Below are positions 12,301 through 45,039 of a stretch of 64,000 nt of DNA, in pieces; within the stretch, counting starts at the first letter, position 1, and each line of letters opens with the position of its first letter. The translations under genes and the position numbers were made by a program. The stretch comes from an uncultured Cytophagales bacterium. Lineage in GTDB: Bacteria > Bacteroidota > Bacteroidia > Cytophagales > Bernardetiaceae. The stretch is taken from positions 925,579 to 989,578 of the forward strand of contig CAVRCG010000004.1 of NCBI GenBank assembly GCA_963719525.1, given 5' to 3'. The notes below the pieces were generated by a model that did no database searches, was not told the DNA's origin, and saw only the letters and a list, made by a program, of their open reading frames with translations.

Positions 12301-15300
12301 ATGGTCGGACTTACTTACGCAGCAAAAGCACTCACAGGCGCATTTGTGGGATATATTACAAATGATTTGGCAATTCAGATGCTTTTCAGAAAGCGTTTTG
12401 GTTTGGGTGGCATTTTTCTCAAAACACATCACGAATTTGTAATCAATATTAGCAAACTCGTCGAAAAAGATATTCTAAATCATAAAACGTTGCTGCCAAA
12501 AATAGAAAACGAACAATTTCAGAAGGCACTTCAAAAAACGGTTCAGACGTATATCGAATCAAAACTGGGAGCTTCTGTTTCAGATAATTTTACGCTACAA
12601 GATATTCCCAAATTTAAGGAAACCACAAATGTAGTTAGGGAACAAATAAAGGGAAGTTTGCCACAAACAGTAGAACCTTTTCTACTTCATCTTTTCAAAA
12701 GAAACTACATTAGGCGATGCCATTTCGGACGAGCAATGGCAAAGTGTAAGTAAGAATATTGTGAAAGAATTAATGGCTGGCGTTTCAGAATGGAATAGTT
12801 TGGAAAAATTGGTGCGTGATTTTACAGATGAGATTGGAAACGAATCTATTTCGTCTTTTATTCATCAAGATTTACAAAATAATATCAAAGAGGAGTTACA
12901 TTTTCTGACAGCCGATTTGCATCTTTTATTAGAAGCACAGCACAAAAAACCAATAGAAAATCTAATCAATCAGACTTTTGAGGAATTAGAAATCGAAGAA
13001 CTAGTTACTAATCTGGCTGGACGAATTTCGAAAAAAACGATTAATTGATATTTTGGGAGAAGAAAAAGCAGAGCATTTAGTGAAAGAAGTTTTGAAGCGT
13101 TTGCAGGCGATTTTGGAAACCGAAGAAGGAATAAAGATTTTAGATGTCTTTTCAGATTTTTTGATTAATACATTAGAAAAGGAAGAAAAAACGATTTTCA
13201 AACTTTTAGACCCAACTACAAAAGTAACATTACAAAAATTCTTTGCTCATCAATTTCCTGCTATTTTGGTAAAAGTAATTGGTTGGCTGTATAGCCGTCA
13301 GAGGGAATTAGAAATTTTGATTGACCAAACTTTTACAAATAATGTAGAATCTGGTTTCAAAAATTGGTTGGTAAAAGTTTTTGTGGGAAGTATTAGCCAA
13401 TTGACCGATATTATTGGAAAAGTAACAAGTATTATTGATTCCTACCGTCGTAATCCTGATGAAGTGGCGAAAGAACTTACGCAGCAAGTTGTAGAATATC
13501 TGGAAAGCAAAAGTATAGGAGAAATTGTTGGAGGACTAAAAAACCAGAATACCGTTGTTTCGCTGACCAAAATTTTGCGTAAAAATGTCTATGATGCCCT
13601 TAATCGAATGGACGTAATGCCGTTAGCAAAACTATTTCTGGAGAAAGAAATTGGAGAATTTATTCCTATTGAAAAACTAACTCCGTTCTTACTTATTAAT
13701 CTAAATAAATTTAGAAAAAATTCTGTACAAACGCTTATTTTTAATGCTAAATTTTCTGAAAGACTTACAAAAGAACTCAACAAGCGAGTAGATAAAATAA
13801 TTGAAACACCTATAAATCAACTTATTGCAGCCGAACAGCGTAAAAAATTAGCGATTAATTTTGAAAAATGGGCAGTCGAAAAATCTCAAAATCACACTTC
13901 TGAAATAGCTGATTTTTTATCAAAAAATATTTCTCAAAGAGTAAATGAGCAGTCTTTGAGTCGTCTTATTTCGGCAGACCAAATTGAAGAATTAGCTATC
14001 GGACTTACAGAACGAGCAGATTCTTACGCCATAGAATTTCTAAAAGACATAGAAAACGAGGAAGTCAAAAATTACTTAGCTTCTCTCAAAAAGTTTCCCA
14101 GCATTTCGGAAGATTTATCAAAAACGCTGCACAAATTTTTGGTTCAAAACTTAGATACGCTTGTTAATGGAAGGATTGAAGAAGTCGTTCAACTTAATTT
14201 GAGCCAACAAACGCCTGAAACTATCCGAACGATGGTGGAAAAGTTTATGGGAAAAGAACTCAAACCGATTACGGCTTTGGGTGCGCTTTGGGGTGGAATT
14301 GCTGGAGGAACGCTTGCTGCAATGCCTGAAATTAATCATTTAGCATTAAAATATACTGTTCCTGCGCTTGCGTATGGGGTTACGGGTTTGGGTACAAACT
14401 GGATTGCGCTGCAAATGATTTTCAAACCTTACGAGAAAAAATATTTCCCTCTTACCAAAAAAACCGTTCCTGTTCCACTTACTCCCGGAATTGTCATAAA
14501 AAATAGAGGACGTTTTGCCGAAAATATGGGAAATTTTGTAGGTAACAAACTAATGAGTGAAGAAGGTTTGAGAACTTCTTTTGATGCCAGCAAAGATAAG
14601 ATTTTAGAGGGTGCGAAAAATTGGATTCAGTCTGATAATTATGCCAAAATTTATGAATATACAGAAGATTATAAAGCCTTTATTGCTCAAAAGGGAGCTT
14701 CTTTAAGTTGGAAATTGGTTGAAGGTTTTACTGAAAATGAAAATGATAGTTTAGACACAAATCAAGAAACTAAATTATCGTCTTTACTCAAAAAAGCAAT
14801 TCAGCCGTATCAAAAATTTACATTAGAAGACATCGATACCTCTTCTTTTGAGAGTACAGTTCTGAAATATATTCAAGATGATTCGCTTTCTGATTTGGTT
14901 TCAGAAACAGCTTTTGAGCAAATAGAAAGCTATTTGAAAAGCCACGAAACGTTGGGCGATGCGCTTCCACAATCTGTACGAACGGTTTTGTACGATAAAA
15001 TAAAAAACTGGATTAGCTTAGAAATGGATTCGTTTTTTGAGAAAATAGATAGTGATGAGCAAGTTAATTTCTTGATAAAACAATTAAATTCGGAATTTGC
15101 AGAACAGGCAACTGAACGAACTATTCAGAGTTATTTGAGCAAAAAGCAAACTCGTAATTTGGAAACAAAACTATCCGATTATTTAGTCGAACAATTACAG
15201 GACACCAAAACACAAGGAAAAGTTTTTGAATTTATCGACAAACATATTTCGACAGAAATCTCTGATGATAAAAAAATAGGAGAATTATTTGATGGTTCTT

Positions 15301-16499
15301 TGCTTAGTCTTCTGACAAATAATATCGATTTTATTATTCAAAAAATGATAGAAACAGGTGCAGAATGGCTTACTCAAAATAGTGAAGAAGTCGCTACACA
15401 AGTTTATGAGAAAGCTTATTCGGAACAAAAAGCTGCATTTATCTATAAAAAAGCAATCAAAAAAACAGCAAAAGAACTGGCTACGGAAGGAATACCAAAT
15501 TTTTTGTTAAAAGAAATTGAAAGTGTAAATCGTTTAGTTCATAATGAAGTAGAACGAATTGGAGAAGTTTCGTTAGGCGAAGTGGGTGTAAAACTCAATA
15601 ATTCGTATTTAGAAAAAACGGTTTCGAATCTTTTGGGAAATGAAACGACACAAAAAGCAGTTAGAGATTTGACAAACGAACTTTTAGAAACTCTTTTCCA
15701 GACTAAAGTTTCAACGTTTATTTCGGTTACAGATATTCATTCTTTGGAGGATTTACAAAATTTACTTCAAACAGAACTAAAACTAGCAGGAAAACACCTA
15801 AGAACGCATTATTTTTCACATCGAACGCAGTTACAAGAAAAGCCAAACGAACTTATTATTGGTGTAATTGAATCGATTTTACAAAAAAATAGCTTCGAAA
15901 ATCAAGAAAATAATTTGACTTCGAATAAAGCGTTATGGCAACGAATTGATAAATCTGCACTTAATCAAACCATTGAAAAAGTAAGCAAACAGATTTTGAA
16001 ATCGGCTGCTTTAGATGCACAAGGGCGAAGAGTGGTCGCACTTTTATTTGAGCGAATCAAAAAAATTCCAGCAAATGAGTTTGTAGATTGGACTATTTTG
16101 GAAAAAGACCTTGCGAGAGCTATTCAAAAACAGTTAGACCAGCCCAAAAACAAAGAACTTTTTGAAGAAGCATTATCTCATTTTATCCAAAAAAATCTCC
16201 TTCCACTACTAAAAAACATTCCAAATGAAAGCAAAGATTTTGTAGTCGAACTTTTATTGAATGCAGGTTTGGAAGCTCTACAAGAAGAATTACCTCATAT
16301 TTTGGCTTCTATTCCGATAAAAGATATTGTTATTTCCGAAATTTCACAGATGCCCCCACAAGAAATTGAAGCCTTGTTTAATTCGTTTGCCAAAAAGTAT
16401 TTTGATAGGCTTGTACAATATGGTTTTGGTTTTGGAATTGTCTTTGGGCTTACGCTAGATACACTTTTAGAGTTTGGGTTGGATTATGTGGAGAAGTAA
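12301..16499 (+). CDS. giant DUF445-like membrane protein (~1390 aa), reading frame broken twice (12753/12761 and 13048/13053)
   Basis: three consecutive ORFs in frames 1,2,0 with continuous sense; N-terminus …GYITNDLAIQMLFRKRF… and C-terminus …FAKKYFDRLVQYGFGFGIVFGLTLDTLLEFGLDYV resemble DUF445-family termini. Confidence 0.5.
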
Positions 16500-16524
16500 A
16501 AATTTATATTAAATAATCAAATCA

Positions 16525-16971
16525 ATGAAATATTTCATTAATAATTATGATAAAATAGCACACGAAATATTTGTGGCTGCTTTGTTCATTTTTTCACTTC
16601 TTTTTTTTACACTAACTTATAGACATTTAGGTTATTATTCAACTAGATTCATTTCCAATTTTATACAAGATGCTAGTTGTTGTGGTAGTTCTCTTACGTC
16701 TTTTGCAAAAGATGCACGTATATTTGGATTACTAATTTCCCTCTATCTTTTTCTTGAAATAGGTCTTTTGAGAAAACTATATGTTGTAACGTTCTTATTT
16801 GTCGTTTCTCTTTTTGGATCGTTATTTTTTATCTGGTTAATGAGTTTCTTTGAAGAACTAGGATGCTTGATTTCTTTCCTAATATATAAAGAGGTTTTAG
16901 TTATTTACTTCATTTATTTTTTAAGTGTGAAAGTTATTAAAAAGTTTAAGGAGAGTAGAAGCAAACTTTAA
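16525..16971 (+). CDS. hypothetical integral membrane protein
   Basis: 148 aa, 4 predicted hydrophobic helices; no recognisable motif. Confidence 0.35.
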   Translation: MKYFINNYDKIAHEIFVAALFIFSLLFFTLTYRHLGYYSTRFISNFIQDASCCGSSLTSFAKDARIFGLLISLYLFLEIGLLRKLYVVTFLFVVSLFGSLFFIWLMSFFEELGCLISFLIYKEVLVIYFIYFLSVKVIKKFKESRSKL

Positions 16972-17016
16972 ATTAAAGAATTACGTTTTGATAAAAACAC
17001 CTAAACACTAAAAATA

Positions 17017-17268
17017 ATGAAAAAAGTAACGATTGAATTAGACAACGACTTGGCTCAAAAAGTAGAGAAATTAGTTGATTCTCATACAAATAAGAATATT
17101 TTATTTGAACGATTTATATCAAATTACAGGGAAGAAATAGAACGCAAGATAGCCAAAATTGATAAAGATTTGAAAAAGTATGAAGCAAAACATAACATGT
17201 CTTCCGAAGCTTTTCATGAAAAATTTGAAAAAGGAGAAGTGGGAGATTCTACTGATGTTATGCTTTAG
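17017..17268 (+). CDS. small RHH-like (putative antitoxin-type) protein, paralog A (truncated by TAG relative to paralog B)
   Basis: 83 aa; MKKVTIELDNDLAQKVEKLV… beta-strand/helix start typical of ribbon-helix-helix; ~60% identical to 18031..18339; downstream in-frame sequence SGIYEMKLNSKIRLKEIS matches paralog B tail. Confidence 0.5.
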   Translation: MKKVTIELDNDLAQKVEKLVDSHTNKNILFERFISNYREEIERKIAKIDKDLKKYEAKHNMSSEAFHEKFEKGEVGDSTDVML

Positions 17269-17401
17269 TCGGGGATTTATGAGATGAAATTGAACAGTAA
17301 AATTAGGCTAAAAGAAATCTCATAAATTATCCTCAACGAACAGTTTTAATTCTATCTTTTTGTAAATTACGATAGAGCTAAAAAAATAAACAAAAATCAA
17401 A

Positions 17402-17617
17402 ATGGAAACAGTATTAATACAAATAAACGACTTAAAAGCCTATCAAATTTTGGAAGGTTTGGAGGATTTGAAAATAATAAAAGTTTTGGAAAAAAATAAG
17501 CAACCTAAAAAAAAACTTTCTGAAAAGTATGCAGGTAAACTCTCAAAAGAAACAGCCGAAAAATTACAAAATCATGTTACTCAAAGTAGAAACGAATGGA
17601 ACAACACAACTATTTAG
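17402..17617 (+). CDS. putative antitoxin of PIN-domain toxin (VapB-like)
   Basis: 71 aa; stop overlaps start region of the PIN gene by 22 nt, the classic TA operon arrangement. Confidence 0.5.
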   Translation: METVLIQINDLKAYQILEGLEDLKIIKVLEKNKQPKKKLSEKYAGKLSKETAEKLQNHVTQSRNEWNNTTI

Positions 17618-17982
17618 TTGATACTAATGCCGTTATAGATTATTTAGCAAATAAATTACCTGTTTCTGGAATGAATTTTATGAACTCCGTTGTTGATTCT
17701 ATTCCTATAATTTCGGTCATTACAAAAATAGAACTTTTAGGTTTTACTACTGCTAACGACGAATATGCTATTTTAGATAATTTTGTAAACGATGCTAGAA
17801 TTATAGAACTCAATAATTTTGTTGTAGAAAAGACTATCTTTATTAGAAAACAGTATAAAATTAAATTACCTGATGCTATTATTGCAGCTACAGCTTTAGT
17901 TTATGATTTAAAAGTGGTTTCAAGAAATGTAAGTGATTTTTCTATTGAAAATTTGGAAGTAATAAATCCACATGGTTTATGA
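17596..17982 (+). CDS. vapC: PIN-domain ribonuclease toxin (VapC-like)
   Basis: 128 aa; PIN acidic residues in LVDTNAVIDYL…, …ISVITKIELL…, …LPDAIIAATALVYDLKVVSRNVSDF. Confidence 0.85.
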   Translation: MEQHNYLVDTNAVIDYLANKLPVSGMNFMNSVVDSIPIISVITKIELLGFTTANDEYAILDNFVNDARIIELNNFVVEKTIFIRKQYKIKLPDAIIAATALVYDLKVVSRNVSDFSIENLEVINPHGL

Positions 17983-18030
17983 TTCTAGAATACAAAACAC
18001 ATTTTAAATATCAATTAAATATCAAGAATT

Positions 18031-18339
18031 ATGACAAAAATAGCGATTGAATTAAACAGCGATTTGGCTCAAAAAGTAGAGAAATTAGTTGATTCTTATA
18101 CGAACAAAAATATATTGTTCGAACAAATTATTGAAAGTCAGAAAGATAAAATAAGACAAGAAATAAACGAAATTGATAAAGATTTGAAAAAGTATGAAGC
18201 AAAATATACTATGTCTTCAGAAAACTTTTATGATAAATTTGAAAAAGGAGAAGCAGGTGATTCTCATGATTTTATGATTTGGGCAGGAATTTATGAAATG
18301 CAATTAAAGCGTAAAATTAAACTTGAAAAAATCTTATAA
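18031..18339 (+). CDS. small RHH-like (putative antitoxin-type) protein, paralog B (full length)
   Basis: 102 aa; MTKIAIELNSDLAQKVEKLVDSYTNKNILFEQ… paralog of 17017..17268. Confidence 0.5.
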   Translation: MTKIAIELNSDLAQKVEKLVDSYTNKNILFEQIIESQKDKIRQEINEIDKDLKKYEAKYTMSSENFYDKFEKGEAGDSHDFMIWAGIYEMQLKRKIKLEKIL

Positions 18340-18543
18340 TTTCTAATTAAATTACTCGCTATCCTTCAAATATTTAAGTAAATCTACCAAATGTTGTTCT
18401 GAATGAATACGTATCAGTAGTTCAAAATACCACAGAGTTTGTTTTTCAGTTGTATGTTCAAAACGCCATTTTATTTCTAATAAGTCATTGATTATATCTG
18501 TTAAATCATCAATAGCATCTCCTATTGCCAAATTATCTTCTTT

Positions 18544-18849
18544 CTACGTTTCATTTATTTCTAAAGTAGTGCTATACCAACCCAAATCTGGAAAATTACT
18601 TTCTACAATTTTTCTTGTTTCATTATAATCAAATCTAGGAGCTTCGATTTGATTACTATCTTTGTCATCATCTTGTAATTGAGAAGAATTACTATTCAGA
18701 TAATGAGCATAAATTTCTACCAATAATCTTTTGATCTCAAGAATTTTATCTTCACATTCTACTTTTGGATTTATTCCAAATTCTGTGAGTTTATTGATTA
18801 AAACTCTAAGATCGTTTATCTTAATTTTATTTGTGTGTTTGATGTTCAT
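18544..18849 (-). CDS. hypothetical protein
   Basis: 101 aa ORF, good coding appearance, no recognisable motif. Confidence 0.35.
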   Translation of the reverse strand: MNIKHTNKIKINDLRVLINKLTEFGINPKVECEDKILEIKRLLVEIYAHYLNSNSSQLQDDDKDSNQIEAPRFDYNETRKIVESNFPDLGWYSTTLEINET

Positions 18850-18900
18850 TTCTTATTATTCTCTCGTCCCTCGCCCCCATTCTCTCGCCCCTAATTCCCC

Positions 18901-19773
18901 CTAATACAAAAACTCAATTTCTTTATTCTCAAAATAGCTAATTTTCCCACTTTGTCCTGCTATTTCTAATGCTAATTTTCCTTCTGCATTAATTCCCAAA
19001 ATCTGTCCTGTAAATTTTTGATTTTTGAGTTTGTCTTTGTAATAATGCCACTCTTGATAACGAAAAAGATGCGAAAGATAATCGGCTCTTAAAGTTTCTC
19101 GTTTTCCTGCTCGTAATTGCAAATAACGTTTTTCTATAAAAAAAAGAATTTCAGTCAGTATTTCTTCTTTGTTCCAGTCTTGGTTTGTCAAGTCCTTTAT
19201 TGAAATAGCCCTATTTGTAGTATCTTCTAAACTATTTTCTGAATTGATTGGGTCAAAAATCTGATTAACATTAATTCCAATTCCTACAATACTCTGACTA
19301 ATCCGATTTGAATTAATTTGATTTTCTATAAGTATTCCTCCTATTTTCTTATTATTCAATTTGTTGTTGAAGGTATGATTAATAAAAATATCATTCGTCC
19401 ATTTTATCTGAAAAGTATCAGCAATTTCTGGAAAATCCGTCTTCAAAACCTGCTCCAACGCATCACGTACACCCAAAGAAACAGCAATCGTAATCCAAAA
19501 TGATTCTTTTGGAGATAAAAAAGTAGGATTGAGTAAAATAGAAAAAGTAAGATTTTCATTTTCCTTCGATATCCAATTATTTCCACGTTGTCCTTTTCCT
19601 TTTGTTTGATGATTTGTCCAAAGAAGTGTTCCTTCAAAAACACTCGTTTTATCGCTGATTTTTTGCTCGTTTATACGCAACGCCAAACTCTCATTGGTGG
19701 ACTGACAGCTTGGCAGATAAATTTGATTTTGTCCTATAAATAATCCCTTTGTATGAATTTTGTAATTGTCCAT
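18901..19773 (-). CDS. birA: biotin--[acetyl-CoA-carboxylase] ligase (BirA catalytic domain family)
   Basis: 290 aa; biotin-protein ligase signature QTKGKGQRGNNWIS (QxxGRGRxGxxWxS). Confidence 0.7.
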   Translation of the reverse strand: MDNYKIHTKGLFIGQNQIYLPSCQSTNESLALRINEQKISDKTSVFEGTLLWTNHQTKGKGQRGNNWISKENENLTFSILLNPTFLSPKESFWITIAVSLGVRDALEQVLKTDFPEIADTFQIKWTNDIFINHTFNNKLNNKKIGGILIENQINSNRISQSIVGIGINVNQIFDPINSENSLEDTTNRAISIKDLTNQDWNKEEILTEILFFIEKRYLQLRAGKRETLRADYLSHLFRYQEWHYYKDKLKNQKFTGQILGINAEGKLALEIAGQSGKISYFENKEIEFLY

Positions 19774-41791: not shown

Positions 41792-43129
41792 TTGATTGAA
41801 AAAATGAAAAATATAGAAAACATAAAAAAAGCCATTTCTTTACAAAAAGAATTAGACGAATTACGTCCTTTGAGTAAAGAACAGAATCAAAAAGTACTAC
41901 AAAAATTTAGATTAGATTGGAATTATCACTCCAATAATATTGAGGGAAATTCACTTACCTATGGAGAAACAAAACTTTTGCTTTTACATGGACTTACAGC
42001 ACAAGGAAAACTACTAAAAGATCATTTGGAGATAACAGGACACAATGAAGCAATGGATTGGATTTTTGATATTGTAAAAAAACAAGAACCAATCACAGAA
42101 CATTTTATTCGTTCTCTGAATGAAATGCTTTTGGGAAGTGAGCCGATTCATAAAAAAGCTATTGATAGAGAAGGAAATGAAACTACAAGAATTATTCAAG
42201 GTGGAAAATATAAAACGCAGCCTAATCACGTTCTGACCAAAACAGGAGAAACATTTTACTTTGCTTCGCCAGAAGAAACACCATCAAAAATGTATGATTT
42301 ATTGCAATGGTACGAAACTGAAAAACAAAACAAAGAACGAGAACCGATTATTTTAGCAGCACAATTTCACTACAAATTTATCCGAATACATCCTTTTGAT
42401 GATGGAAATGGAAGAACAGCACGGCTACTGATGAATCTTATTTTGATGCGTTTCGATTTTCCTCCTGCTATCATAAAGACAAACGACAAAGAAAATTATT
42501 ACAACGTTTTGCGACAAGCCGATGGAGATAATATTGTTCCTTTTATAGATTACATTGCTCAAAATATCATTCATTCGTTAGAAATTATGATTTCGGCAGC
42601 AAAAGGAGAAGATATAAGTGAACCGAATGATTTAGATAAAGGGATTGCACTTTTAGAACAACAGCTTAAAACGGCTACGAGTGAGTTATTAATAAAAGTA
42701 TCTTTAGATATACGACAAAGTATTTTTGATGAAGAATACAGAAGAATAAAACATTTCTTTTTTGGTGAAAATAAAAAATTTGCAAAACTTTATCACGAAT
42801 ACGACCAATACACAGAAGAATTAGATTATCATAACATACCAGAAATTAGTATTTTAGATGAAGGAGGAGATTTTTTAAGAATAGAATCTAGTTTTCATAA
42901 TTTAAAATATGACGGTTTTGAAAAATTTAAACATTCAAGTTGGATAGAAATTAGATTTAGTGAATTTAAGTATATTGTTTGTGATAGTAATGAAAAAATA
43001 ATTATTCAAAAAAAATACAACCAACAACTCACAGACCAAGAAATAAAATCTTTAGTAGAAGCAGAAACGACTTTGCATAAAGAATTGATAGCTCAAAAAA
43101 TAAAGGAATATCAGAATAAAGACAATTAA
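41792..43129 (+). CDS. Fic-domain protein (AMPylator family) with intrinsic inhibitory motif
   Basis: 445 aa; Fic motif HPFDDGNGRTARL; N-terminal SNNIEGN fits the (S/T)xxxE(G/N) auto-inhibitory helix of class II Fic proteins. Confidence 0.85.
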   Translation: MIEKMKNIENIKKAISLQKELDELRPLSKEQNQKVLQKFRLDWNYHSNNIEGNSLTYGETKLLLLHGLTAQGKLLKDHLEITGHNEAMDWIFDIVKKQEPITEHFIRSLNEMLLGSEPIHKKAIDREGNETTRIIQGGKYKTQPNHVLTKTGETFYFASPEETPSKMYDLLQWYETEKQNKEREPIILAAQFHYKFIRIHPFDDGNGRTARLLMNLILMRFDFPPAIIKTNDKENYYNVLRQADGDNIVPFIDYIAQNIIHSLEIMISAAKGEDISEPNDLDKGIALLEQQLKTATSELLIKVSLDIRQSIFDEEYRRIKHFFFGENKKFAKLYHEYDQYTEELDYHNIPEISILDEGGDFLRIESSFHNLKYDGFEKFKHSSWIEIRFSEFKYIVCDSNEKIIIQKKYNQQLTDQEIKSLVEAETTLHKELIAQKIKEYQNKDN

Positions 43130-43249
43130 TAAAAAATCAACATTTTAAATAAACTAAATTTTAATTTTTTCGTTACTTTTTGTAACTTGCAAAGTTTTGT
43201 TTTTGATTCTATTGCTATTAAACAGACCATTTTTTAAACTTTATTTTTT

Positions 43250-43669
43250 ATGAGTACTACCAATACAGAAAATTTTTTATTCGAAAATGAGTATGTTCTT
43301 TTCGATGTTACCAAATTTCCATTTATCTACATAGAACATACAGCGCATCAGCCTACACCAGAAGAATTTAATGACTACATAAATTGTATGAGTAGAGCCT
43401 TGTTGCGAAATGAACCCTATGTTTTGCTTGTCGATATGAGCAAAGTAGAATATCTGAATACTGAATACAGAACTATTAGTGAGAATTGGAATAAAACTAA
43501 TTCTGCTCATTTGGGTAAACATTGTAAAGGTGCTGCTAATTTGGTGCGTGATGAAGAACAAAAAGCAATATTGAATTATGTACTCAAATTAGCGTATGAC
43601 ATAACTTATCCAAATTTTGTTACTGTAAGTAAAGAAAAAGCAGAGCAATGGTTGGAAGGAAGAGTTTAG
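43250..43669 (+). CDS. small protein, tandem paralog 1 of 4 (unknown function)
   Basis: 139 aa; shared motifs FLFENEY-LFD-TKFP, CKGAAN, EQWLEGRV. Confidence 0.6.
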   Translation: MSTTNTENFLFENEYVLFDVTKFPFIYIEHTAHQPTPEEFNDYINCMSRALLRNEPYVLLVDMSKVEYLNTEYRTISENWNKTNSAHLGKHCKGAANLVRDEEQKAILNYVLKLAYDITYPNFVTVSKEKAEQWLEGRV

Positions 43670-43705
43670 ATTTTAAAACAGTGCTATAATTATGAATTTA
43701 ATTTT

Positions 43706-44122
43706 ATGGATAATTTTAATGTAAAAGAATTTCGTTTTGAGAATGAGTATTTTCTATTTGATGCAACTAAGTTTCCTTATTTGTACATAAGATTTAAAAT
43801 TGAAAAGCCGAACAGGAAACAGTTTGATGAGTATTTATATTGTCTGAATAACGTCATTCTACAACCTCAAAATTACGTTCTTTTTTCTGAACTCAAAGAA
43901 ACAGAATATATACAAGCCGAATTTAGAAAGGAGTTAGACAGTTGGCTTATCAAAAATATTGGACACATTAATCAATATTGTAAAGGTGCTGCAAATGTAG
44001 TAGCCGATGAAAATCAAAGACTACTTTTGACTCAAATGGTAAAAGCTCATCAACCAGTTTACCCTGTTTTTATTACCGATGACGAACAAAAAGCGAAAGA
44101 GTGGCTAGAAGGAAGAGTTTAG
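43706..44122 (+). CDS. small protein, tandem paralog 2 of 4
   Basis: 138 aa; FRFENEYFLFDATKFPYLYI…CKGAANVV…KEWLEGRV. Confidence 0.6.
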   Translation: MDNFNVKEFRFENEYFLFDATKFPYLYIRFKIEKPNRKQFDEYLYCLNNVILQPQNYVLFSELKETEYIQAEFRKELDSWLIKNIGHINQYCKGAANVVADENQRLLLTQMVKAHQPVYPVFITDDEQKAKEWLEGRV

Positions 44123-44158
44123 AAATTAATAAAACATTTTTTTAACTTTATTATCACT

Positions 44159-44575
44159 ATGAAAAATACTGAACCATCAAAATTTCTTTTTGAAAACGAT
44201 TATTGTCTTTTTGACTCTACTAATTTTCCTCATTTGTACATGAAGTTTAAAATTGAAAATCCTGATAAAAAGGAATTTTATGAATATTTAGACTGTATGA
44301 ATAAAATTTTGCTTCACGATAAAAAATATATTGTATTGGTGGAGCTAAACGGTTCGGAATATCTAAAAGCTGAATTTAGGAAAAGGTTAGCCGAATGGAA
44401 CGATGAGCATCATGAAATATTGAAAAAATATTGTAAAGGAGTAGCTTATATTAGCCATTCAGAAGAACAAAGGACGATGCTAAAAATTATTTTAGATGGT
44501 TATGTCTTGCCTCATCCTGTTGTGGTAACAGACACGCAAGAAAAAGCTGAAAACTGGCTGGCAAACAGAATTTAG
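44159..44575 (+). CDS. small protein, tandem paralog 3 of 4
   Basis: 138 aa; FLFENDYCLFDSTNFPHLYM…CKGVAYISHSEEQR…ENWLANRI. Confidence 0.6.
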   Translation: MKNTEPSKFLFENDYCLFDSTNFPHLYMKFKIENPDKKEFYEYLDCMNKILLHDKKYIVLVELNGSEYLKAEFRKRLAEWNDEHHEILKKYCKGVAYISHSEEQRTMLKIILDGYVLPHPVVVTDTQEKAENWLANRI

Positions 44576-44622
44576 ATTCAGAAAAATACTATTGATCATA
44601 TAAATCATTATCTTGTTTTGTT

Positions 44623-45039
44623 ATGAATAATTTTAATCCGAATGAATTTTACTTTGAAAATGAATATTTCTCTTTTGATGCAACAGCATTTCCATATATT
44701 TACATAAAATTCAAACCTCAAGTAGCTGAAAGAGAACAGTTTGATGGTTACATTCATTGTATGAATAAAATTCTTTTACAGGAAAAGTTTTATGTAATTT
44801 TGATAGAACTAGCAGATTCGGAATATTTAAAAGCAGAATTTAGAAAAGAACTAGCAGAATGGAACGTTAAATATATAGCACACATGGGCAAGTTTTGCAA
44901 AGGAGTAGCACATATTAGCCATTCGGAAGAGCAGCGTGTTATGATGAAAACAATTTTGAATAGTTATGTTTCGCCTTATCCTGTTGTGGTAACGGACACG
45001 CAAGAAAAAGCTGAAAATTGGCTGGCAGGACGAGTATAA
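44623..45039 (+). CDS. small protein, tandem paralog 4 of 4
   Basis: 138 aa; FYFENEYFSFDATAFPYIYI…CKGVAHISHSEEQR…ENWLAGRV. Confidence 0.6.
   Translation: MNNFNPNEFYFENEYFSFDATAFPYIYIKFKPQVAEREQFDGYIHCMNKILLQEKFYVILIELADSEYLKAEFRKELAEWNVKYIAHMGKFCKGVAHISHSEEQRVMMKTILNSYVSPYPVVVTDTQEKAENWLAGRV

What the first reader, a model, noticed from the sequence alone, without database searches (positions are those of the whole stretch)
17017..18339. PIN toxin-antitoxin cassette flanked on both sides by paralogous RHH-like small genes, one truncated by a TAG
A 71-aa gene overlaps the start of a 128-aa PIN (VapC-like) gene in classic TA fashion. The pair is flanked upstream and downstream by two paralogous small proteins (83 and 102 aa, ~60% identical) whose N-termini (K-V/I-T/A-I-E-L-D/N-x-D-L-A-Q-K-V-E-K-L-V) look like ribbon-helix-helix DNA-binding antitoxins. 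In paralog A a TAG replaces the TGG (Trp) of paralog B, and the downstream in-frame sequence SGIYEMKLNSKIRLKEIS still matches the tail of paralog B. That is a recent nonsense mutation, a sequencing error, or a regulated truncation. The four-gene arrangement A-antitoxin-PIN-B is unusual and could represent nested or three-component TA regulation.
Basis: partly seen in the sequence, partly recalled or inferred. Interest (0 to 1): 0.5.

Follow-up and report, generated by a model that had tools for sequence, protein, structure and literature searches.

The report
Two toxin-less TumA antitoxins flanking VapBC
The two small genes either side of the PIN toxin-antitoxin pair are leftover antitoxins of a second, already described system (TumA-TumE) whose toxin genes have been lost, so this looks like ordinary decay in a hotspot for such cassettes, not a new three-part system.

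Summary
A 71-aa gene overlaps a 128-aa PIN gene by 22 nt. The pair is flanked by two paralogues (66% aa, 78-79% nt identity). In copy A a TAG replaces the Trp codon of copy B, and the in-frame tail is still recognisable.

Both flanking genes belong to the TumA antitoxin family. All 50 family members tested match NCBIfam TumA. In nine independent related loci the homologue is followed directly by a TumE (DUF6516) toxin gene or a fragment of one.

The window has no tumE anywhere. After copy B, 15 nt matching a tumE 3' end (IISN-stop) abut the stop codon. After copy A, tumE is absent at the position where L015/L016 carry one.

Relatives with the same flanking genes (DUF445 gene on one side, biotin ligase on the other) carry different subsets of the cassettes: tumAE alone, tumAE plus an orphan vapB, vapBC alone, or a truncated PIN plus tumAE. 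The modules are therefore independent.

Copy A's TAG hits the only invariant residue of the family. A also has five private substitutions at otherwise invariant sites, so it is most likely a pseudogene. Copy B is intact and may or may not still function.

This is a new member of known kinds, of low to moderate interest.

The parts
16953..17016 (+). Conserved tumA upstream region, presumed promoter/operator, containing the box AAAGAATTACGTTTTGATAAAAAC
   Evidence: Homology with the upstream regions of tumA in L002, L008, L010, L011 and L015 starts 55-64 nt before A's ATG. The same box (94% over 35 nt) lies directly upstream of vapB in L017, which has no tumA. Promoter function is inferred, not shown.
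17017..17325 (+). tumA copy A: a TumA-family antitoxin gene, probably a pseudogene. The ORF stops at TAG 17266-17268 (83 aa) and the in-frame tail runs to TAA 17323-17325
   Evidence: NCBIfam TumA E=9e-8. The TAG replaces the Trp84 codon, the only invariant column in the 50-sequence family alignment. A has five private substitutions at sites invariant in 12 relatives, against 0-2 for the others. No tumE follows it.
17326..17401 (+). A-vapB spacer, the place where tumE is missing. 17357-17401 is the conserved vapB upstream region
   Evidence: L015/L016 carry tumE (372 nt, Pfam TumE 2e-26) between tumA and the same vapB upstream sequence. The window has 29 nt (17328-17356) where L015 has 405 nt. 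An 11-nt string TCATAAATTAT is shared at the junction.
17402..17617 (+). 71-aa antitoxin of the PIN toxin (VapB-like in role; not in any Pfam family)
   Evidence: 325 homologues at about 70% identity across Bacteroidota and Chlorobiota-like MAGs. It precedes PIN with a 22-nt overlap in L017 and L018/L019. dN/dS against L017 is 0.09. Only weak Pfam hits, PF02697 E=0.022.
17596..17982 (+). PIN-domain (VapC-like) RNase toxin, apparently intact
   Evidence: Pfam PIN E=4e-9. Matches solved Ribonuclease VapC 7by2 at E=4e-10, with the acidic residues D9, E46, D93 and D114 aligned. 83% nt identity to the L017 orthologue.
18031..18339 (+). tumA copy B: an intact TumA-family antitoxin gene with no toxin gene
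   Evidence: NCBIfam TumA E=1.4e-11. 90% identical to P0002/L010, which is followed by tumE. AF2 model pLDDT 95.8. dN/dS against L010 is 0.16, within the range of toxin-linked controls, 0.14-0.30.
18336..18350 (+). 15-nt remnant matching a tumE 3' end (ATAATTTCTAATTAA = I-I-S-N-stop), overlapping B's stop codon; read as a deletion scar
   Evidence: Window 18336-18370 matches L008 4694-4728 at 34/35 nt. That stretch is the last codons of L008 tumE (protein ends ...KIISN) plus the sequence downstream of it.
18352..18849 (-). Convergent neighbouring gene (DUF5063-like, about 165 aa) interrupted by an in-frame TAG at 18544-18546. It belongs to the same variable region but not to the TA modules
   Evidence: The orthologue in L017 (160 aa) is uninterrupted, and L008 keeps only the 3' end. 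DUF5063 appears only as a precomputed 'faint' Pfam mark on the L017 orthologue. Direct scans found no significant family.

Best explanation
The region between the large DUF445-family gene (13053-16499) and the biotin-ligase gene (18901-19773, minus strand) is a variable hotspot for toxin-antitoxin cassettes in a Bernardetia/Flexibacter-like Cytophagales chromosome. In this genome it holds three modules.

(1) One apparently intact type II module: a 71-aa antitoxin whose last 22 nt overlap the start of a PIN (VapC-like) RNase gene. It presumably works in the usual way, though this is inferred. The overlap would couple translation of the two genes, the antitoxin would bind and block the nuclease, and the nuclease would be freed when the labile antitoxin is degraded.

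(2) and (3) Two relics of TumA-TumE modules of different subtypes. In each the tumE toxin gene is gone and only the antitoxin gene remains. This is the expected order of decay, because losing the antitoxin first would be lethal.

The upstream relic (A) keeps the family's native upstream region, but it has a TGG-to-TAG change at the invariant Trp84 and further private substitutions, so it is most likely a pseudogene. The downstream relic (B) is intact and abuts 15 nt matching a tumE 3' end. It has no canonical tumA upstream box, and no terminator-like site lies between the genes, so it is probably transcribed by read-through from the vapBC operon.

A and B are not accessory components of the PIN system.

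Shown here: family assignments, synteny, absence of tumE, the tumE-tail remnant, and the position of the TAG. Inferred: direction of the events, expression, and any residual function of B.
For: Family assignment. A and B hit NCBIfam TumA (50/50 family members, best E=1.7e-13).

Gene partner. Homologues are followed directly by PF20126 TumE in L001, L002/3/7, L004-6, L008, L010, L015/16, L022/23 and L024/25, and by a TumE fragment in L020/21. TumE-TumA is an experimentally validated, translation-targeting TA family with the toxin downstream of the antitoxin (PMC10584680).

No tumE in the window. tblastn and a TumE HMM run with --max on the six-frame translation find nothing better than E about 0.5-1.

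Traces of loss. A 15-nt tumE tail lies after B. tumE is absent after A compared with L015.

Independence of the modules. L017 has vapBC with neither tumA. L018/19 have vapBC in an unrelated TA island. L002 and L008 have tumAE only. L015 has tumAE plus an orphan vapB. L010 has a truncated PIN plus tumAE.

State of A. Trp84 is the single invariant column of the family. A has five private substitutions at conserved sites.

Genetic code. TAG is an ordinary stop here: 11 of 46 long ORFs end in it.

PIN. Catalytic residues are intact and it is homologous to solved VapC.
Against: No read-level data, so the TAG in A (and the one in the neighbouring gene) could be an assembly or consensus error.

Only 64 kb of the genome was available. 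A tumE elsewhere in the chromosome could make A and B functional in trans.

For A, the direction of the event (deletion here versus insertion or replacement in relatives) is inferred from parsimony. A is not the orthologue of the L015 tumA (74% nt identity).

B's dN/dS (0.16) is as low as that of toxin-linked copies. This fits very recent toxin loss, but equally fits continued function.

No expression data or toxicity assay exists for any gene here.
Confidence: 0.8

Rival explanations
1. Anti-addiction or immunity role. The orphan tumA genes, at least B, are kept because they neutralise TumE toxins encoded elsewhere in the genome or arriving on mobile elements, or because they still act as transcriptional repressors. 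This accepts the same origin as the main explanation but assigns B a current function.
For: B is full length and has all family-conserved residues. Its dN/dS against the toxin-linked L010 copy is 0.16, no higher than controls. Patches of 97% nt identity between A and B against a 79% background suggest ongoing gene conversion or constraint.
Against: Copy A is decaying, which argues against strong selection for TumA function at this locus. A low pairwise dN/dS mostly reflects the time before toxin loss. No TumE target is visible in the 64 kb.
Confidence: 0.25
2. One reading: A, the 71-aa protein, PIN and B form a nested or three-component TA system in which the RHH-like paralogues regulate or help neutralise PIN.
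For: All four genes are on the same strand with short spacers, and no terminator-like site was found, so co-transcription is possible. The tumA-type upstream box lies directly upstream of vapB in L017, so a TumA-like repressor could in principle have regulated read-through into vapBC.
Against: The 71-aa/PIN pair is complete and conserved without any tumA in L017 and L018/L019. This TumA family pairs with TumE across several phyla. A 15-nt tumE remnant sits after B. One of the two supposed components carries a nonsense codon at the invariant Trp.
Confidence: 0.04
3. The TAG in A is a sequencing or consensus error, or a polymorphism within the population, and A is really a full-length 102-aa TumA. 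The locus would then hold two intact orphan antitoxins.
For: It is a single G-to-A difference. The tail downstream is still in frame and well conserved. A second in-frame TAG lies only 1.3 kb away in another gene, which could point to local consensus problems.
Against: A also has five private amino-acid replacements at positions invariant in 12 relatives, which indicates relaxed constraint independent of the TAG. Both disruptions are substitutions in dispensable genes of a decaying region. The two TAG contexts share no sequence motif (read directly from the sequence).
Confidence: 0.12
4. Programmed TAG read-through or recoding produces both an 83-aa and a 102-aa form of A.
For: The in-frame conserved tail after the TAG.
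Against: TAG ends 11 of 46 long ORFs in the window, including four tandem genes at 43250-45039 that each restart with their own ATG. No tRNA gene or suppressor was found in the window, and no Rfam element in the region. All other family members encode Trp at this position.
Confidence: 0.02

Closest known systems
TumE-TumA type II toxin-antitoxin family (DUF6516/PF20126 toxin; NCBIfam NF045776 antitoxin), Durairaj et al., Nature 2023 (PMC10584680)
   Same: A and B match the TumA model over their C-terminal ~55 residues. Their close and distant homologues sit immediately upstream of a TumE gene, often with a 4-nt overlap. This is the bicistronic antitoxin-then-toxin arrangement the paper describes.
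   Different: The window has no TumE gene, so these are orphan antitoxins. The proteins are about 100 aa with an extra N-terminal strand-helix-helix segment, whereas the NCBIfam model is 76 positions long. Scores (32-44 bits) are well below the 100-bit equivalog cut-off. The experimentally validated pairs were gammaproteobacterial, and this subfamily is untested.
VapBC (PIN-domain) type II toxin-antitoxin systems, e.g. Ribonuclease VapC in PDB 7by2
   Same: A PIN domain with the four conserved acidic residues; a small upstream gene overlapping the toxin start; conserved as a pair in many genomes.
   Different: The 71-aa antitoxin matches no curated antitoxin family (best is PF02697, E=0.022). 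The target RNA and toxicity are unknown.
Orphan antitoxins and decaying chromosomal TA loci, and the 'anti-addiction' concept (cited from my own knowledge of the TA literature, e.g. Saavedra De Bast et al. 2008; not checked here)
   Same: Antitoxin genes remain after loss of the cognate toxin gene. Variation in cassette content between strains at one chromosomal site.
   Different: No evidence here that the orphans protect against incoming TumE. One of them is already a pseudogene.
Three-component TA systems (e.g. PaaR-PaaA-ParE, tripartite toxin-antitoxin-chaperone systems; cited from my own knowledge)
   Same: Superficially, an extra small regulator-like gene next to a TA pair on the same strand.
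   Different: In true tripartite systems the third gene is co-conserved with the pair. Here the extra genes and the pair occur independently of each other in relatives.

Membership tests
TumA antitoxin (partner of TumE/DUF6516) | Sequence match to the curated TumA model (NCBIfam NF045776) | tested here: inconclusive
   B scores E=1.4e-11 (44 bits) and A E=9e-8 (32 bits), covering model positions 17-71 (B) and 8-51 (A, truncated by the TAG) of 76. All 50 of 50 family members hit it, best E=1.7e-13. All scores are below the 100-bit equivalog cut-off, so this is homology at superfamily level, not equivalog membership.
TumA antitoxin (partner of TumE/DUF6516) | Gene lies immediately upstream of a TumE (PF20126) toxin gene | tested here: not met
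   Not met in the window: no TumE within 64 kb. It is met for the homologues, in eight independent loci with full TumE, from 90% down to 32% identity, and in one with a TumE fragment. The window also keeps a 15-nt tumE tail after B. A and B are therefore filed as orphaned TumA genes, not as a working TumAE system.
TumA antitoxin (partner of TumE/DUF6516) | Neutralises TumE toxicity on co-expression | not testable with these tools
   Needs a toxicity-rescue assay like the one in PMC10584680.
VapBC / PIN type II TA | PIN domain with the conserved acidic active-site residues | tested here: met
   Pfam PIN 37.5 bits, above the 23.6-bit cut-off. The alignment to VapC 7by2 (E=4e-10) shows D9, E46, D93 and D114 conserved.
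VapBC / PIN type II TA | Small antitoxin gene directly upstream, overlapping or abutting the toxin and co-conserved with it | tested here: met
   22-nt overlap in the window. The same arrangement is seen in L017 and L018/L019. 325 homologues of the 71-aa protein.
VapBC / PIN type II TA | Antitoxin belongs to a recognised VapB-type DNA-binding family (AbrB, RHH, Phd/YefM, MerR, PF02697) | tested here: not met
   No significant Pfam or NCBIfam hit. PF02697 reaches E=0.022 in only 2 of 20 homologues.
Ribbon-helix-helix (RHH/CopG/Arc/MetJ) DNA-binding domain, claimed for the N-termini of A and B | N-terminal beta-strand, helix, helix motif with detectable similarity to RHH families | tested here: inconclusive
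   The AF2 model has an extended segment at 1-9, a helix at 10-21 and a helix from 26. That fits RHH, but the second helix runs on to residue 59. Foldseek against the PDB found nothing with E<=0.001. Weak hits: NikR N-terminus E=0.058 and CopG_antitoxin in 2/50 members at E=0.0085.
Three-component / nested TA system | The third (and fourth) gene is co-conserved with the toxin-antitoxin pair | tested here: not met
   vapBC occurs without tumA in L017 and L018/L019. tumAE occurs without vapBC in L001, L002, L008, L022 and L024.

The most novel reading that the evidence does not exclude
The intact orphan TumA (B), transcribed by read-through from the vapBC operon, is kept as an anti-addiction or immunity factor against TumE toxins carried by mobile elements or encoded elsewhere. 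Alternatively, TumA repressors cross-regulate the adjacent vapBC operon through the shared tumA-type upstream box, which lies directly upstream of vapB in L017. Either way, the two TA families at this hotspot would be functionally coupled rather than merely adjacent.
Probability: 0.12. Interest if true: 0.5.

Novelty: new member of a known kind. Interest (0 to 1): 0.22.

Why it matters
The result corrects an attractive but wrong reading (a nested, three-part TA system) to a documented one. It provides a natural series of one chromosomal TA hotspot caught at different stages of gain and decay in related Cytophagales: tumAE alone, tumAE plus orphan vapB, vapBC alone, truncated PIN plus tumAE, and here two orphan tumA genes around an intact vapBC. 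In several of these stages the toxin gene is lost or truncated while the antitoxin gene survives. It also extends the recently described TumE-TumA family to a roughly 100-aa antitoxin form with an N-terminal extension. That form is widespread in Bacteroidota and found in several other phyla. The practical value is for annotation: the 83- and 102-aa genes should be named TumA-family antitoxin (one a pseudogene), and the 71-aa gene a PIN-associated antitoxin. Biologically this is ordinary TA turnover.

Tried and rejected
Global TAG recoding: rejected. TAG ends 11 of 46 long ORFs, and apparent in-frame TAG chains such as 43250-45039 are four tandem genes, each with its own ATG.

A hidden or degenerate tumE in the window: tblastn and a purpose-built TumE HMM run with all filters off on the six-frame translation found nothing.

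RNA elements or an integration site: no Rfam match in 16000-19500 at E<=1, no tRNA or tmRNA in the whole window, and no terminator-like sites in 16400-19000.

Structural assignment of TumA-B: a confident AF2 model, but no PDB match by sequence profile or by Foldseek.

Pfam assignment of the 71-aa antitoxin through 20 homologues: nothing significant.

Wider context sampling: the genome and metagenome contig scans with the family alignment returned only three loci each.

Identifying the source organism: exact look-ups gave no name or accession. The only information is that the proteins lie on a 3.8-Mb contig held by NCBI and ENA, and that the nearest relatives are Cytophagales, Bernardetia and Flexibacter MAGs.

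Multidomain relatives of TumA: this only revealed a YafQ-fragment/TumA fused gene call, probably two adjacent TA genes merged.

Full report
**1. Observation**

The ORF table and the sequence confirm the four genes.
- A: 17017-17268, 83 aa, ending in TAG.
- The 71-aa gene: 17402-17617.
- A 128-aa gene: 17596-17982, which passes the Pfam PIN threshold (E=4e-9). It overlaps the 71-aa gene by 22 nt.
- B: 18031-18339, 102 aa.

A and B form a 300-nt ungapped direct repeat at 78% identity. They are 66% identical as proteins. Translating through A's TAG gives an in-frame tail, SGIYEMKLNSKIRLKEIS, that aligns with B's tail. The TAG sits exactly opposite B's TGG.

**2. What the flanking paralogues are**

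Neither has a Pfam family. Both hit the NCBIfam model for the antitoxin TumA over their C-terminal half (B E=1.4e-11, A E=9e-8). An exhaustive profile search found 878 cluster representatives at E<=0.001, mostly about 100 aa long. In a 50-sequence alignment spanning 25-90% identity, every member hits TumA.

TumE-TumA is a type II TA family defined in 2023. The toxin is DUF6516/PF20126, it inhibits translation, and it is encoded downstream of the antitoxin (PMC10584680).

Gene neighbourhoods confirm the assignment.
- Homologues at 61-90% identity are followed directly by a PF20126 gene in L001, L002/L003/L007, L004-L006, L008, L010 and L015/L016.
- So are distant homologues from Aminicenantes and Ignavibacteria MAGs, with 4-nt overlaps.
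- A gammaproteobacterial homologue is followed by a 50-aa N-terminal TumE fragment (E=7e-8 with my own TumE HMM).
- One locus, L011, has a GyrB-domain ORF in the toxin slot.

**3. The toxin genes are missing here**

tblastn with three TumE proteins found nothing in the 64 kb. Neither did a seven-sequence TumE HMM run with all filters off on the six-frame translation (best E about 1).

After B, window 18336-18370 matches L008 4694-4728 at 34/35 nt. The first 15 nt, ATAATTTCTAATTAA, are the last codons of L008 tumE (I-I-S-N-stop), and they abut B's own stop codon. I read this as a deletion scar. B's unusual C-terminal Leu may be a by-product, since most relatives (10 of 12) end in Ser or Ala.

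After A, the window has 29 nt (17328-17356) where L015/L016 have 405 nt containing tumE. Homology resumes 45 nt upstream of vapB, and an 11-nt string, TCATAAATTAT, is shared at the junction. For A the direction of change is inferred by parsimony, because A is not the orthologue of the L015 tumA (74% nt identity).

**4. A variable hotspot, not a unit**

The flanking genes are syntenic in several relatives: a large DUF445-family protein upstream, and on the other side the biotin-ligase-like gene followed by RsfS and FtsH. The content between them differs.
- L002/L007 and L008: tumA-tumE.
- L015/L016: tumA-tumE plus a 67-aa vapB with no PIN.
- L017: the tumA-type upstream box joined directly to vapB-PIN, then the convergent DUF5063-like gene, with neither tumA.
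- L010: a 3'-truncated PIN, then tumA-tumE.
- The window: tumA(A), vapB, PIN, tumA(B), DUF5063-like gene.

The 71-aa/PIN pair also occurs in an unrelated TA island in a Saprospiraceae genome, next to DUF2683/ParE and Fic. The PIN cassette and the tumA genes are therefore independent modules. This removes the basis for a nested or three-component system.

In several of these loci the toxin gene is missing or truncated while the antitoxin gene survives: orphan vapB in L015, the TumE fragment in L020, and both tumA genes here. L010's truncated PIN shows toxin decay too, but the contig starts inside PIN, so vapB there cannot be seen. This is the order expected from established TA biology, because loss of the antitoxin while the toxin is active is counter-selected.

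**5. State of the individual genes**

- *Copy A.* Trp84 is the only invariant column in the 50-sequence alignment, and this is the codon changed to TAG. A also carries five private replacements (T2K, Y23H, Y59H, F81V, I83L) at positions identical in all 12 close relatives. Every other member has 0-2. That points to relaxed constraint and makes a lone sequencing error less likely, though only reads can settle it.
- *Copy B.* B retains all conserved residues. Its dN/dS against the toxin-linked L010 copy is 0.16, within the control range of 0.14-0.30. This is compatible with recent toxin loss or with retained function.
- *Relationship of A and B.* A and B belong to different tumA subtypes; B is 91% identical in nt to L010, while A is at most 79% identical to anything. 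They nevertheless share patches of 97% nt identity (alignment positions 31-60 and 151-180), which suggests local gene conversion.
- *PIN toxin.* It aligns with solved VapC 7by2 (E=4e-10) with D9, E46, D93 and D114 in place.
- *71-aa antitoxin.* It is highly conserved, with 325 homologues and dN/dS 0.09 against L017. It belongs to no curated family.

**6. The RHH claim**

The AF2 model of B is confident (pLDDT 95.8). It shows an extended N-terminus (1-9), a helix at 10-21, a long helix at 26-59, then helices at 63-71 and 79-101. The start resembles a ribbon-helix-helix. However, Foldseek finds no significant PDB match, the profile-against-PDB sequence search is empty, and HMM evidence is weak. 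The label remains plausible but undemonstrated.

A's truncation removes most of the last helix (79-101), which carries Trp84. By analogy with other type II antitoxins, the C-terminal region is the likely toxin-binding part. That is inference.

**7. TAG recoding and other alternatives**

TAG is an ordinary stop codon here (11 of 46 long ORFs). The window has no tRNA gene, and the region has no Rfam element.

A second in-frame TAG interrupts the convergent DUF5063-like gene at 18544-18546. Its L017 orthologue is uninterrupted, with Phe at that column in a variable linker. Two nonsense codons in 1.3 kb of dispensable genes fit a decaying region. They would also fit local consensus errors.

**8. 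Verdict**

The finding is real, but its interpretation changes. It is a TA hotspot holding one intact VapBC-like module between two toxin-less TumA antitoxin genes, one of them a probable pseudogene. This is a new member of known kinds, with modest interest. The main value is a correct annotation and a clear comparative series of TA cassette turnover.

The most novel reading not excluded is that the intact orphan TumA still acts, either as anti-addiction immunity or by cross-regulating vapBC. I put that at about 12%.

Noticed in passing
window 18352-18849 (minus strand): A ~165-aa gene convergent with tumA-B is split by an in-frame TAG at 18544-18546 into 101-aa and 59-aa ORFs. Its L017 orthologue (160 aa) is uninterrupted and has Phe at that column. 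DUF5063 appears only as a precomputed 'faint' Pfam mark on the L017 orthologue; direct scans found no family. This is the second nonsense TAG within 1.3 kb.
   Followed up: partly
window 41792-45039 (+): A Fic-motif gene (HPFDDGNGRTARLL, 41792-43129) is followed by four tandem paralogous genes of 138-139 aa (43250-43669, 43706-44122, 44159-44575, 44623-45039). The first three are in the same frame and each ends in TAG. Possibly an immunity- or antitoxin-like array; function unknown.
   Followed up: no
L011 6380-7453: In a syntenic relative, the slot after tumA holds a 357-aa ORF with a GyrB transducer domain (PF00204, E=6e-18) instead of tumE. It could be a different toxin partner, an insertion, or an assembly chimera.
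   Followed up: partly
L020/L021 2300-2452: In a gammaproteobacterial MAG, an intact TumA-like gene is followed, with a 4-nt overlap, by a 50-aa ORF that is an N-terminal TumE fragment (E=7e-8). This is another case of the toxin decaying first. L021 also has a Phd/YefM antitoxin gene immediately upstream.
   Followed up: partly
L015 3001-3204; L010 1-141: Relatives carry other decay states at the same hotspot. L015/L016 have a 67-aa vapB with no PIN gene. L010 has a PIN ORF truncated after about residue 88 of 128, directly upstream of an intact tumA-tumE.
   Followed up: yes
window 16525-16971 (+): A 148-aa hydrophobic ORF lies between the DUF445 gene and tumA-A. It has no Pfam or NCBIfam hit and no nucleotide counterpart in the syntenic loci, which have a different spacer of about 390-460 nt there.
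   Followed up: partly
window 17047-17076 / 18061-18090 and 17167-17196 / 18181-18210 (approximate: alignment positions 31-60 and 151-180 from each start codon): A and B are 79% identical overall in nt but contain stretches of 97% identity. This suggests patchy gene conversion between the two tumA copies, or nucleotide-level constraint.
   Followed up: partly
P0150 (protein from the representative library): A 125-aa predicted protein joins a YafQ-toxin C-terminal fragment (PF15738, E=2e-17) to a TumA-like C-terminal domain. It is probably two adjacent TA genes merged by gene calling, or a real fusion in another TA island.
   Followed up: no
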